Assembly: GCA_037440485.1 (NCBI GenBank)
Contig: JBBIUD010000001.1
Coordinates: 1-26,205, forward strand
Direction: 5' to 3'
DNA from: Chlorobiota bacterium
Lineage (GTDB): Bacteria; Bacteroidota; Ignavibacteria; Kapaibacteriales; NICIL-2
DNA length: 26,205 nt
Positions 18,886 through 21,304 of the stretch are shown here, piece by piece. How positions within the stretch are numbered: position 1 is the first letter of the stretch; each line of letters opens with the position of its first letter. A program made the position numbers and the translations under genes. Under the pieces are notes generated by a model. That model did not search any database. It was not told where the DNA came from and worked only from the letters and a program-made list of their open reading frames with translations.

Positions 18886-19506
18886 ATGGATACGATCGCT
18901 CGTGCTCATTTGGAAGCCTCTATAGCAACCAAACAACGCTTACTCGAGCAAACCATTGGTGACATCGTGCGAGTTGGGAAACGGCTTGCCGAGTCTCTTG
19001 CGGGGGGAGCGCTGGTCATGCTGTGCGGTAATGGTGGGTCGGCGGCTGACGCTCAGCACTTTGCCGCCGAATTGGTCATTCGATACCGCTCACAGGTGCA
19101 GCGTGCAGCTCTTCCTGCGATTGCCTTGACGACTGATCCATCAATGATGACCGCTGGTGGGAATGATATTGGTTTTGAGAATGTGTTCGCTCGTGCAGTG
19201 GATGCTCTCGGCAAATCTGGTGATGTACTGATCGGGATAAGCACAAGTGGCAACTCTGAAAACGTCCGACGGGCAATGGAGGCAGCACGCCAACGAGGTA
19301 TGCTGTGCGTAGGATTATTGGGGTGTGGGGGCGGGATTATCGCTCCACTGTGCGATGTTTCTGTGATTGTGCCGAGTACTGTGACGGCACACATTCAGGA
19401 ATGCCACATCACGATTCTTCATATTTGGTGCAGCATTATCGAGGCAGCGCTCTTTCCTGATGCTGTCAGTGGTGCTGGACTTGTACCATCGGGGAATACT
19501 CCGTAA
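18886..19506 (+). CDS. gmhA: D-sedoheptulose 7-phosphate isomerase
   Basis: CGNGGSAADAQHFAAEL, NDIGFENVFAR, GDVLIGISTSGNSENV and IQECHITILH. Confidence 0.95.
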   Translation: MDTIARAHLEASIATKQRLLEQTIGDIVRVGKRLAESLAGGALVMLCGNGGSAADAQHFAAELVIRYRSQVQRAALPAIALTTDPSMMTAGGNDIGFENVFARAVDALGKSGDVLIGISTSGNSENVRRAMEAARQRGMLCVGLLGCGGGIIAPLCDVSVIVPSTVTAHIQECHITILHIWCSIIEAALFPDAVSGAGLVPSGNTP

Positions 19507-19511
19507 TTTTG
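19504..19511 (+). promoter_or_regulatory. Bacteroidota-type -7 promoter element overlapping the gmhA stop codon
   Basis: cgTAATTTTGcg, an exact TAnnTTTG match lying 9 nt before the 5' arm of the structured element. Confidence 0.55.
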
Positions 19512-19520
19512 CGCCGGCAT

Positions 19521-19649
19521 TCGTTGAGTCTTTGCTTGTGTTCGATGCTAACCCTGCTTCAGCGGGGATTTGCTTTTGAGTCATGCTGAACGTGTTTCAG
19601 CATCTTTCATCTAACGGCGCACTGCATACAGCAGCATCGAACTCAACGA
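19521..19649 (+). ncRNA. Candidate structured RNA or long tRNA leader of unknown family
   Basis: TCGTTGAGT/ACTCAACGA (9 bp) and TCGATGCT/AGCATCGA (8 bp) close a junction holding hairpins CCCTGC-TTCA-GCGGGG and ATGCTGAA-CGTGT-TTCAGCAT. Strand is inferred from the promoter box. Confidence 0.45.
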
Positions 19650-19679
19650 CAGAGCGTACAGACGTATGTTGACCGTTGT

Positions 19680-19755
19680 GCCACTTTAGCTCAGTTGGTA
19701 GAGCAGCTGACTTGTAATCAGCAGGTCGCCGGTTCGAGTCCGGCAGGTGGCTCCA
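19680..19755 (+). tRNA. tRNA-Thr (anticodon TGT)
   Basis: GCCACTTTAGCTCAGTTGGTAGAGCAGCTGACTTGTAATCAGCAGGTCGCCGGTTCGAGTCCGGCAGGTGGCTCCA, a 76-nt cloverleaf with encoded CCA. Confidence 0.97.
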
Positions 19756-19870
19756 AATCATGAAAAGCAACCGACCAGCGCAATTGCGTAATTCTACGTA
19801 TTGAGCCATCAAGAAAGGGAGCGTAAGTTCGCCTATGCAAAAGTCAATCTACGTTGTGGGTGCTTAGACG

Positions 19871-21304
19871 ATGTACGAATTCGATGACGCGCCTGAATGG
19901 TCGAATCTGCGACCAGACCTTGAAATAGAGTCTGTTCTTCGGCAGTGTGCATTAGCATGCGTACACGGCTCATTGGAGTTGCTCGATGGTGAACTTCGAC
20001 TCCCTGACCAATTGGAGCAGCTCGCCAATTACTGCCTGGAGCAGGGACGCTTTGCCGATGCTGTCAATGTTGCATCCTTGTGGACCATGATTGCACCGTA
20101 TAGTGCTGAGGCATGGCATAAGCTTGGAGTTGCGCAGAATGGGGTGGGGCAGTATCGCCAAGCGACCGAATCTCTTCGCCATGCACTCTTGTGTAATCCA
20201 ACGGATGTTGAGATCATTCTCCACCTGGCCGAAGCGTACACAAATGCTGGTATTGTTTCCGAAGCTGAGAAATATTTCGACTACGCTCTATTGCTTGATC
20301 CTGCCTCGGAAGAGGCGATCTTCCAGAAAGCAGCCTTTCTTCAGCGGCGATGCTTGTACCGCGATGCTATCGAACTTTATGAACGCTTAGCTGATTCACC
20401 GACACTTGCAAAGGAGGTCCTCTTCGAGCTTGGGTACTGTTACGATTGCTGTCAGCGATACGATGACGCCATCACCGCCTATGATCGGGTGCTGGATATA
20501 GATCCGTACTATGCCGATGCGTGGTTCAATCGTGGTGTGGTGTTGACTCGACACGGACAGTACACCGAAGCGCTGTCCAGCTATGATTTTGCACTTGCCA
20601 TTGATCCCAAGCATGTTGCAGCGCTCTACAACAAAGGGAATGTCCTTTCACTGCTGGGCAAGTTGGAGGCAGCAGTCGCTTGCTATCGCGAAGCTCTCAA
20701 TTACGATAGAACTGATGCCGCAATCTGGCACAACCTGGGGAGTGTTCTTGGTGAGTTGGCGAGGTACTCCGAAGCAATTGAGGCGTTCACCGAAGCCATT
20801 TCACTCAATCCGCGCCACTTCGAGTCATATTTTGGTCGGGGTACCTGTTACGATGCAATCGAGAACTATTTCCAAGCACTCTCGGATTACGATGCTGCCC
20901 TGGCAATACAGCGCGCATATCCTGAGTTATGGTATGCTCGTGCCGATGTGTTAATGCAATTGGAACTCTACGACGACGCGCTTGCTTCATACCGCACTGC
21001 ATTAGAACTCAACCCCAAACACGCAGAATGCTGGTATGATTACGCTATTGCACTGCTCCATATTCGGCAATATCGGGAGTCTATCGAAGCATTAGAACGA
21101 GCTGCGATGCTCTCTCCAACCTGGGCGGACCCATACTTCGCGCTTGTGAAAGCATACTTATGGCTGGCAGATGTACCATCTGCTCAGCGTGCCCTGCAAC
21201 AAGCCATAGAGCTTAGTCCGCACCGGCGAGCTGAATTCGAAGCTGAGCTACTCGCAATACTTCCTTCTAACCTTGTCCAACTCCTTGGGCGAAGCAGCAA
21301 GTAA
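19871..21304 (+). CDS. Tetratricopeptide repeat protein
   Basis: 477 aa with many 34-aa repeats of the form AW.N.G..L...G.Y.EAL..YD.AL.IDP. Confidence 0.92.
   Translation: MYEFDDAPEWSNLRPDLEIESVLRQCALACVHGSLELLDGELRLPDQLEQLANYCLEQGRFADAVNVASLWTMIAPYSAEAWHKLGVAQNGVGQYRQATESLRHALLCNPTDVEIILHLAEAYTNAGIVSEAEKYFDYALLLDPASEEAIFQKAAFLQRRCLYRDAIELYERLADSPTLAKEVLFELGYCYDCCQRYDDAITAYDRVLDIDPYYADAWFNRGVVLTRHGQYTEALSSYDFALAIDPKHVAALYNKGNVLSLLGKLEAAVACYREALNYDRTDAAIWHNLGSVLGELARYSEAIEAFTEAISLNPRHFESYFGRGTCYDAIENYFQALSDYDAALAIQRAYPELWYARADVLMQLELYDDALASYRTALELNPKHAECWYDYAIALLHIRQYRESIEALERAAMLSPTWADPYFALVKAYLWLADVPSAQRALQQAIELSPHRRAEFEAELLAILPSNLVQLLGRSSK

What the first reader, a model, noticed from the sequence alone, without database searches (positions are those of the whole stretch)
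19504..19679. Unexplained ~130-nt multibranched RNA-like element with its own promoter box, upstream of tRNA-Thr
Seen: an exact cgTAATTTTGcg box (19504-19511) is followed by a closed fold. A 9-bp stem (19521-19529/19641-19649) stacks on an 8-bp stem (19542-19549/19633-19640) with a 12-nt 5' bulge. These enclose hairpins at 19552-19567 and 19583-19603 and a small CTG-CATA-CAG loop. Two 7-mers each occur twice: TTGAGTC (19524, 19576) and TTTGCTT (19531, 19569). The second TTGAGT could compete for the 3' arm, allowing an alternative fold. A weaker box (cgTATGTTG) lies just before the tRNA, so the element may be separately transcribed. I could not match it by eye to SRP, tmRNA, T-box, TPP, fluoride or c-di-GMP motifs. 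Inference: a novel ncRNA, a regulatory tRNA leader, or a decayed MITE/REP-like element at a tRNA locus.
Basis: partly seen in the sequence, partly recalled or inferred. Interest (0 to 1): 0.7.

Follow-up and report, generated by a model that had tools for sequence, protein, structure and literature searches.

The report
Palindromic repeat insertion in tRNA-Thr leader
The "RNA-like element" is a young insertion, carrying copies of a genome-wide palindromic repeat, that has pushed the threonine tRNA gene about 150 bases away from its own promoter; it drifts at the neutral rate and its fold is not conserved, so it is ordinary selfish or junk DNA rather than a new RNA gene.

Summary
Every coordinate, stem and 7-mer checks out, and the 17-bp two-part inverted repeat was matched by none of 3000 shuffles. 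The reading as a novel ncRNA with its own promoter is not supported.

- **Promoter box.** TAATTTTG (19504-19511) is the tRNA-Thr(UGU) promoter -7 box of Bacteroidota type. In this genome 18 of 35 tRNAs have TAnnTTTG 8-29 nt upstream. In six of seven congeneric species the same box lies 9-25 nt before tRNA-Thr; the seventh has a one-mismatch variant.
- **Insertion.** Only here and in one sister lineage does about 150 nt sit between box and tRNA.
- **Repeat content.** Hairpin 19580-19605 is an exact copy of a 26-nt REP-like palindrome. That family has about 70-120 mostly extragenic copies here, often in BIME-like arrays, and 212 copies in one congener. Hairpin 19552-19567 is a decayed second copy, still recognisable in the sister 42 nt upstream, which is the array period.
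- **No constraint.** Between the two lineages the spacer is 80.6% identical, against 79.3% at fourfold-degenerate sites. No helix shows a compensatory change, and the outer 9-bp stem is missing in the sister.
- **Other evidence.** No Rfam hit; MFE z = -1.6; no RNA data.

Verdict: a REP-array insertion in a tRNA leader, a new member of a known kind, of low interest.

The parts
18886..19506 (+). gmhA-like SIS-domain gene (phosphoheptose isomerase family); its stop codon TAA is the first three bases of the box
   Evidence: ORF. Pfam SIS_2 is on record for the identical product. Homologues are followed by tRNA-Thr in all congeners examined.
19504..19511 (+). TAATTTTG, the -7 promoter box (TAnnTTTG, Bacteroidota/Chlorobi type) of tRNA-Thr(UGU), now 168 nt from the tRNA
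   Evidence: It is conserved in 6 of 7 congeners and in the sister lineage, 9-25 nt before the tRNA. It is kept in G005 even where it no longer overlaps the stop codon. It scores 17.3 bits on a matrix built from 18 tRNA promoters of this genome (training range 14.2-26.4); every other spacer position scores -1.3 or less. Consensus from 10.1101/172254 and PMC7641319.
19512..19526 (+). Probable remnant of the ancestral short leader (CGCCGGCATTCGTTG); inferred
   Evidence: It resembles the whole leader of congener G007: CGCCG...GCATTTCGTGT before the tRNA. This is inference from one comparator.
19527..19673 (+). Inserted segment of about 147 nt, specific to this lineage and its sister; single copy apart from the REP units
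   Evidence: It is absent from seven congeneric species, whose spacers are 14-33 nt. The flanks of the REP have no significant match in the own genome, in five congeners, or (3' flank only) in 300 genomes of the class. The exact boundaries are inferred.
19543..19568 (+).
   Evidence: The orthologous sister sequence ATACTGAACCTGTTTCAG matches the REP HMM at 16 of 18 positions, 42 nt upstream of unit 2. The window copy is no longer detected by the HMM. It gives a terminator-like pattern match.
19580..19605 (+). REP unit 2, GTCATGCTGAACGTGTTTCAGCATCT: an exact member of the type-A palindromic repeat family (8-bp stem, 5-nt loop)
   Evidence: It has 68 copies within 2 mismatches in this genome and 212 in congener G004, with exact copies on C123 and C128. 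nhmmer score is 32.9 bits. It is 24/26 identical in the sister.
19521..19549 (+). 5' arms of the long inverted repeat (TCGTTGAGT ... GTTCGATGCT)
   Evidence: GATGCT is the 5' stem arm of decayed REP unit 1. GTTGAGT is missing in the sister.
19633..19649 (+). 3' arm of the long inverted repeat (AGCATCGAACTCAACGA); CAGCATC equals the 3' stem arm of the REP consensus
   Evidence: There are two uncompensated substitutions in the sister.
19674..19679 (+). CGTTGT just before the tRNA; CGTTG repeats 19522-19526, a candidate 5-bp target-site duplication (speculative)
   Evidence: Read directly from the sequence and compared with congener leaders ending TCGTGT or TCGTGAT. It is not visible in the sister.
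19680..19755 (+). tRNA-Thr(UGU), the only gene with this anticodon found in the assembly
   Evidence: ARAGORN and Rfam RF00005 at 73.7 bits. The genome-wide tRNA list shows Thr tgt, cgt and ggt once each.

Best explanation
The 173-nt gmhA/tRNA-Thr spacer is the old, short tRNA-Thr leader split by a lineage-specific insertion of about 150 nt.

The core of the insertion is a two-unit tandem array, with a 42-nt period, of a 26-nt REP-like palindrome. That palindrome is dispersed through this Kapabacteria-group genome in BIME-like arrays. One unit (19580-19605) is still canonical. The other (about 19543-19568) has decayed.

Part of the long inverted repeat that closes the fold comes from the complementary stem arms of REP-like sequence (GATGCT / AGCATC). 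The rest comes from changes found only in this lineage.

TAATTTTG at the gmhA stop is the tRNA's own promoter -7 box, not a promoter of the element.

Inferred, not shown: tRNA-Thr(UGU) is now transcribed with a 5' leader of roughly 160 nt that contains the repeats. RNase P then removes the leader, with or without earlier endonucleolytic cuts. The element itself has no sequence-specific function and evolves neutrally.
For: **The hairpin is a repeat-family member.**
- 19580-19605 recurs about 70 times in the own genome, often at 41-44-nt spacing, while the flanks are unique.
- There are 100 hits within 5 mismatches, and the stem variants are compensatory: GCTGAAC/TTCAGC, GCCGAAC/TTCGGC, CCCTGAAC/TTCAGGG.
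- The copies form mosaic arrays of two REP types in opposite orientation.
- Only 21 of 120 copies lie in stop-free frames of 150 codons or more, which cover 94% of the genome.
- The family is restricted to the genus and very unevenly expanded: 68 copies here, 212 in G004, 0-5 in the others, and none in 33 genomes of other genera.

**It is an insertion.**
- Seven congeneric species have 14-33-nt spacers, with the box (exact in six, a one-mismatch variant in G004) 9-25 nt before the tRNA.

**The box is the tRNA promoter.**
- 18 of 35 tRNAs of this genome carry TAnnTTTG 8-29 nt upstream, against 0.009 expected per 60 nt.
- On the promoter matrix the box scores 17.3 bits and nothing else in the spacer exceeds -1.3.

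**A sister lineage has the same insertion.**
- It is found in L213-L215, from two NCBI assemblies and a Logan run.
- There unit 1 is still a recognisable REP, 42 nt from unit 2.

**There is no constraint.**
- The spacer is 133/165 = 80.6% identical, with 13 further gap columns. Fourfold-degenerate sites of five flanking genes are 79.3% identical over 783 sites.
- Outside unit 2 the spacer is 78% identical. The intergenic stretch just after the tRNA is about 96% identical.

**The fold is not conserved.**
- There are 0 compensatory pairs. Helix 1 keeps 2 of 9 pairs in the sister, and helices 2, 3 and 5 each carry uncompensated breaks.
- The sister's MFE structure is different, with z = -1.1.

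**Other.**
- There is no Rfam match, even at E up to 10.
- The assembly is sound. Contigs from four independent studies carry the spacer with 0 differences and no joints.
Against: - The 17-bp interrupted perfect inverted repeat is far beyond chance (0 of 3000 shuffles). REP arms explain only about 6-7 of its base pairs.
- Relative to the sister, a 7-nt indel and two substitutions together create or destroy a perfect 9-bp helix. This could reflect selection for a closed fold in this lineage rather than drift.
- Two terminator-like hairpins with T-rich tails lie inside the presumed leader. They would hinder read-through to a single-copy tRNA.
- No transcript data exist. No RNA run holds the spacer.
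- Only two lineages carry the element, so the covariation test has little power.
- No REP-flanked RAYT gene was found that could explain mobility.
Confidence: 0.8

Rival explanations
1. It is an independent small non-coding RNA. It would be transcribed from the TAATTTTG box and ended by one of the internal hairpin-plus-T-run sites, or released by RNase P cleavage at the tRNA 5' end. It would act in trans or as a structured RNA.
For: A good promoter box lies directly upstream. Terminator-like hairpins are at 19552-19577 and 19583-19612. The closing inverted repeat is non-random.
Against: The box is the ancestral tRNA promoter. The element is absent from all seven congeneric species. Its divergence is neutral and there are no compensatory changes in the sister. 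The outer helix is absent there. MFE z is only -1.6. There is no Rfam family. No RNA run holds it.
Confidence: 0.05
2. It is a functional cis element. One possibility is that the REP hairpins act as a terminator or 3'-end stabiliser for the gmhA mRNA, as REPs do in E. coli operons. The other is that they act as an attenuator tuning tRNA-Thr(UGU) output from the distal promoter.
For: The hairpins lie immediately 3' of gmhA. There are terminator-like pattern matches, 5 found against 0.8 expected in shuffles of the 600-nt region. REP unit 2 is better conserved (24/26) than the rest of the spacer. Established knowledge: E. coli REPs can stabilise upstream mRNA and attenuate transcription (my own knowledge, not tested here).
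Against: The GC-rich terminator-like hairpin of unit 1 does not exist in the sister. Congeners manage with 14-33-nt spacers. Better conservation of unit 2 is equally expected from recent origin or homogenisation within a repeat family. The pattern scan is not evidence of function.
Confidence: 0.1
3. It is a one-off non-autonomous transposon (MITE-like) that inserted with a 5-bp target duplication (CGTTG) and terminal inverted repeats. The REP copies would be passengers or later arrivals.
For: CGTTG occurs at 19522-19526 and 19674-19678, flanking the inserted segment. The left flank resembles the complete leader of congener G007. There is a long inverted repeat near both ends.
Against: The inverted repeat is not terminal with respect to the putative duplication. 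The non-REP parts have no other copy in the own genome, in five congeners, or (3' flank) in 300 genomes of the class. The duplication is not visible in the sister, and a 5-mer match is weak evidence.
Confidence: 0.05

Closest known systems
REP elements and BIME arrays of Enterobacteria and Pseudomonas; REPINs (PMC3116915)
   Same: A short imperfect palindrome (26 nt, 8-bp stem) with tens to hundreds of mostly extragenic copies. Stem variants are compensatory. Copies cluster in arrays that mix two subtypes in opposite orientation. Copy number differs greatly between close species. The repeats break short-read assemblies.
   Different: The consensus sequence differs and there is no GTAG head. 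The host is a Kapabacteria-group member of Bacteroidota/Chlorobiota. Many arrays are head-to-tail with a 41-44-nt period rather than REPIN doublets. The only RAYT-like genes score below the NCBIfam cut-off and are not flanked by these REPs.
Bacteroidota/Chlorobi primary-sigma promoters (TTG-N17-23-TAnnTTTG; 10.1101/172254, PMC7641319)
   Same: The box TAATTTTG fits the -7 consensus. The same motif (consensus gTATTTTTGCa) precedes half of this genome's tRNA genes at 8-29 nt.
   Different: Here the box lies 168 nt from the tRNA it should serve, the longest distance in the genome. No transcription start has been mapped.
Palindromic repeats lodged between a -7 box and a tRNA gene, noted earlier in this scan on other DNA (e1-3614736 Bacteroidales tRNA-Arg; e1-686966 tRNA-Gly)
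   Same: The place of insertion is the same (the promoter-tRNA gap). The general nature is the same: a dispersed palindromic repeat in a fast-changing spot.
   Different: The repeat families and organisms are unrelated. I did not re-examine those cases.

Membership tests
REP/BIME-type repetitive extragenic palindromes | Short (about 20-40 nt) imperfect palindrome able to form a stem-loop | tested here: met
   The 26-nt unit has an 8-bp stem ATGCTGAA/TTCAGCAT and a 5-nt loop.
REP/BIME-type repetitive extragenic palindromes | Many dispersed copies in one genome | tested here: met
   68 copies within 2 mismatches. 100 hits within 5 mismatches on about 30 contigs. 0 hits for the reversed control pattern.
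REP/BIME-type repetitive extragenic palindromes | Extragenic location | tested here: met
   21 of 120 copies lie in stop-free frames of 150 codons or more, and such frames cover 94.4% of the genome. This is a crude ORF proxy, not a gene call.
REP/BIME-type repetitive extragenic palindromes | Clusters that combine subtypes in alternating orientation (BIME) | tested here: met
   Type A (+) is directly followed by type B (-) in arrays on C125, C128, C27, C18 and C123.
REP/BIME-type repetitive extragenic palindromes | Cognate RAYT (Y1 HUH transposase) gene flanked by the REPs | tested here: inconclusive
   A RAYT-like gene is present, with the HVH motif and the RNYFEH tyrosine. It scores 62 and 74 bits on NF047646 against a cut-off of 80. 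No REP lies beside it. Gene count does not track REP count across the genus.
The whole 173-nt spacer as a member of the repeat family (many-copy element) | The full element, not just the hairpin, recurs elsewhere | tested here: not met
   Flanks 19512-19579 and 19606-19679 give only chance-level hits in the own genome and in five congeners; the 3' flank gives the same in 300 genomes of the class.
Structured ncRNA or cis-regulatory RNA family (Rfam) | Match to a curated covariance model | tested here: not met
   Only tRNA hits at gathering threshold. Nothing in the spacer at E up to 10.
Structured ncRNA (any, novel) | Structure conserved with compensatory changes; sequence under purifying selection | tested here: not met
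   0 pairs changed on both sides. Helix 1 is lost in the sister. Spacer identity is 80.6%, against 79.3% at fourfold sites. Only two lineages are available, so power is low.
Structured ncRNA (any, novel) | A discrete transcript | not testable with these tools
   No RNA run holds the spacer.
MITE | Terminal inverted repeats, target-site duplication and multiple copies | tested here: not met
   An internal inverted repeat is present and a candidate 5-bp duplication CGTTG. The element is single-copy.

The most novel reading that the evidence does not exclude
The perfectly closed 17-bp fold could be adaptive. It exists only in this lineage and was made by a 7-nt indel plus two substitutions. Having had its single-copy tRNA-Thr(UGU) separated from its promoter by a repeat insertion, the lineage may have evolved a compact leader structure. 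Such a structure could bring the 5' end next to the tRNA, or mask the internal terminator-like hairpins, so that the precursor is still made and processed. That would be a REP-derived, newly born structured tRNA leader or attenuator.
Probability: 0.06. Interest if true: 0.5.

Novelty: new member of a known kind. Interest (0 to 1): 0.22.

Why it matters
It removes a candidate novel RNA from the list and explains it as repeat DNA.

Three by-products have modest value:
- A previously undescribed REP/BIME-like family in a thermophilic Kapabacteria-group genus, with 0 to more than 200 copies between sister species. I found no paper on it; the one combined literature search returned no paper holding both terms.
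- Direct genomic support that TAnnTTTG is the tRNA promoter box in this group.
- A natural case in which a single-copy tRNA tolerates being moved about 150 nt from its promoter by hairpin-rich DNA. This could be used to study leader length and RNase P processing in Bacteroidota-type organisms.

The promoter-tRNA gap now recurs in this scan as a landing site for palindromic repeats.

Tried and rejected
- **Rfam.** Searched at gathering threshold over the window and at E up to 10 over 19300-19900. Only tRNA and noise were found.
- **Folding both strands.** Unremarkable z-scores.
- **Searching for the non-REP flanks.** Searched the own genome, five congeners and (3' flank only) 300 genomes of the class. 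Only chance-level hits.
- **A third decayed REP at about 19621-19646.** I suspected one from the 41-nt period and the CAGCATC motif. nhmmer does not support it, so I do not claim it.
- **Link to a RAYT transposase.** RAYT-like genes exist but score below the cut-off, are not REP-flanked, and their number does not follow REP number. Left open.
- **Proximal weak box cgTATGTTG as the tRNA promoter.** Rejected by the matrix score and by its loss in the sister.
- **sigma-70 promoter scan.** Nothing found, and it is not the relevant promoter type.
- **Transcript evidence.** No RNA run holds the spacer. RNA runs with 0.07 of the words share only the tRNA.
- **Small ORFs across the spacer.** The 71-aa and 89-aa minus-strand ORFs, and a 65-aa call in L213, overlap the tRNA or gmhA and have no family. 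I treated them as spurious.
- **First codon comparisons for rimM and recQ.** These were out of register and were redone with protein-guided alignment.

Full report
**Observation.**
- TAATTTTG lies at 19504-19511, and its TAA is the stop codon of a gmhA-like SIS-domain ORF (18886-19506).
- tRNA-Thr(TGT) lies at 19680-19755.
- The 9-bp helix (19521-19529/19641-19649), the 8-bp helix (19542-19549/19633-19640), the three small hairpins and the two duplicated 7-mers are all in place. The 8-bp helix is in fact a 10-bp perfect helix, 19540-19549/19633-19642.
- The two-part inverted repeat is not a chance feature. No shuffle out of 3000 reached 17 stacked pairs (maximum 14).
- Overall folding energy is ordinary: z = -1.57 on the + strand and -0.92 on the - strand.
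- Rfam gives nothing in the spacer, even at E up to 10.

**The organism.** The nearest named relatives of the gmhA product are MAGs labelled Candidatus Kapabacteria (KatS3mg039, 77% aa) and Chlorobiota (SKW43, 79%). The DNA occurs in hot-spring, subsurface and sediment metagenomes. This group uses Bacteroidota-type promoters, TTG-N17-23-TAnnTTTG (10.1101/172254 and PMC7641319).

**The box is the tRNA's promoter.**
- In this genome 18 of 35 tRNA genes have TAnnTTTG 8-29 nt upstream of the mature 5' end, where 0.009 would be expected per 60 nt. Several more have one-mismatch versions, and the rest are mostly internal genes of tRNA clusters.
- The consensus is gTATTTTTGCa.
- A matrix built from these sites scores the window's box at 17.3 bits, inside the training range of 14.2-26.4.
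- In six of seven congeneric species gTAATTTTGc sits at the gmhA stop, 9-25 nt before an identical tRNA-Thr; G004 has a one-mismatch variant.
- In G005 gmhA ends earlier, yet the box is kept in place. It is therefore conserved for its own sake.
- Members of another genus of the family have TAtTTTTG at a similar short distance.
- tRNA-Thr(UGU) of the window is the outlier of the genome, with 168 nt between box and tRNA.

**The spacer is an insertion that carries repeats.**
- The seven congeners have spacers of 14-33 nt, so about 150 nt were added in this lineage.
- Searching the own assembly with the spacer shows that only 19580-19605 recurs, about 70 times. Copies often sit at 41-44-nt spacing and often lie at contig ends.
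- The unit is a 26-nt palindrome, GTCATGCTGAAC-nnGnT-TCAGCATCT. Its variants keep the stem by paired changes (GCCGAAC/TTCGGC).
- A second subtype, GTCACCCTGAAC...TTCAGGGTCT, lies next to it in the opposite orientation. This gives BIME-like mosaics.
- Copies avoid long open frames. Only 21 of 120 lie inside such frames, which cover 94% of the genome.
- The family is confined to this genus among 41 genomes searched, and its numbers are very uneven: 68 here, 212 in G004, 0-5 in the other six.
- The remaining parts of the spacer are single-copy.

**A sister lineage decides the matter.**
- The 90% cluster of the gmhA protein has three members. Their contigs give a second lineage (L213-L215; gmhA 91.5% nt and 92.7% aa identical) that has the same insertion in diverged form. 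They also give further copies of the window type with an identical spacer (L216).
- Four sequencing runs from four studies hold the window-type spacer with no difference and no joints, so the assembly is sound and no empty-site allele was seen. Both lineages co-occur in at least one sample.
This is a clear REP copy (nhmmer, 16/18) lying 42 nt upstream of the canonical one, which is the array period.
- The insertion is therefore a two-unit REP array, and its first unit has decayed in the window lineage into a different, GC-rich hairpin.
- The inner closing helix uses GATGCT of that decayed unit and CAGCATC downstream. These are the two arms of the REP stem, which explains part of the complementarity.

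**No sign of constraint.**
- The spacer is 80.6% identical between the lineages (133 of 165 ungapped columns, plus 13 gap columns).
- Fourfold-degenerate sites of five flanking genes are 79.3% identical (783 sites).
- Outside REP unit 2 (24/26) the spacer is 78% identical.
- As an internal control, the intergenic stretch after the tRNA is about 96% identical.
Helix 1 keeps 2 of 9 pairs in the sister: its 5' arm GTTGAGT is missing and its 3' arm has two substitutions. Helices 2, 3 and 5 have uncompensated breaks. Only the REP hairpin is intact.
- The sister's own MFE fold is different and unremarkable (z = -1.1).
- The duplicated 7-mers and the weaker box are likewise absent from the sister.

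**Mechanism.**
- *Shown:* it is an insertion, it contains REP units, the box is of tRNA-promoter type, divergence is neutral, and the fold is not conserved.
- *Inferred:* transcription still starts just after the box, so the precursor carries a repeat-rich leader of about 160 nt that RNase P removes. tRNA-Thr(UGU) is the only gene with this anticodon in the assembly (the assembly is 91% complete) and no other promoter-like box lies nearer.
- *Speculative:* the left flank CGCCGGCATTCGTTG resembles the entire leader of congener G007, and CGTTG recurs just before the tRNA. This would fit insertion at the leader-tRNA junction with a 5-bp duplication.
- *Open:* how the repeats move. RAYT-like genes are present, with the HUH motif and the tyrosine. 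They score below the NCBIfam cut-off, have no flanking REPs, and their number does not follow REP number.

**What remains odd.**
- The perfect 9-bp outer helix exists only in the window lineage. It differs from the sister by one indel and two substitutions that together make or break it.
- Drift, a templated (quasi-palindrome) mutation, or selection for a closed leader cannot be told apart with two lineages.
- Two terminator-like hairpins with T-rich tails lie in the presumed leader, so some attenuation of tRNA-Thr is possible.
- I give the adaptive or regulatory readings together about 0.15-0.2.

**Comparison and novelty.**
- The element works like, and its core belongs to, the REP/BIME kind of repeat (PMC3116915 for REPINs). 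Palindrome, copy number, extragenic location and mosaic arrays are all met. The RAYT link is inconclusive.
- It is not a member of any Rfam family, and it fails the tests for a conserved structured RNA and for a MITE.
- The scan has noted palindromic repeats in the gap between a -7 box and a tRNA on other DNA before (e1-3614736, e1-686966). I did not re-test those.
- Verdict: a new member of a known kind, of low interest as an RNA candidate and modest interest as a repeat family and as a natural test of leader length.

Noticed in passing
window 19779-19835: Downstream of tRNA-Thr and upstream of the 477-aa ORF (19871-21304) that precedes feoA/feoB lies the motif GCAATTGCGTAaTTCTACGTATTGAG ... 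GTAAGTTCGCc. It is kept almost letter for letter in the sister lineage and in 6 of 7 congeneric species, whose coding DNA is only about 70-73% identical. There is no Rfam hit. It is a candidate operator, alternative-sigma promoter or 5'-UTR element.
   Followed up: partly
own genome, e.g. C125:3500-3810, C18:11300-11540, C128:130-480, C27:6990-7350: A REP/BIME-like repeat family with two subtypes, GTCATGCTGAAC..TTCAGCATCT and GTCACCCTGAAC..TTCAGGGTCT. It forms head-to-tail arrays with a 41-44-nt period and inverted doublets. There are about 120 copies here, 212 type-A copies in congener G004, and none in two other congeners. Several copies sit at contig ends and probably fragment the assembly.
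   Followed up: partly
G000:C8:14769-15365 (locus L220:1432-2031, minus strand); G004 loci incl. L221:1144-1731: RAYT-like Y1/HUH transposase genes of 195-199 aa, with motifs MPNHVHG and WQRNYFEH. They score 62-74 bits on NCBIfam REP_Tyr_transpos (cut-off 80). In G004 one sits between the S and R genes of a type I restriction system. None is flanked by the REPs.
   Followed up: partly
own genome, upstream of tRNA genes: Half of all tRNA genes carry the box gTATTTTTGCa 8-29 nt upstream. This gives a clean, genome-derived promoter -7 consensus for this Kapabacteria-group organism. tRNA-Glu (C310) has an unusually long 68-nt gap without a recognisable repeat.
   Followed up: partly
sequencing runs X4 and assembly GCA_900175155.1 (L215, L217): Two lineages of this organism, with about 8% nucleotide divergence in gmhA, co-occur in the same samples. 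One carries the window-type spacer and the other the sister-type spacer.
   Followed up: no
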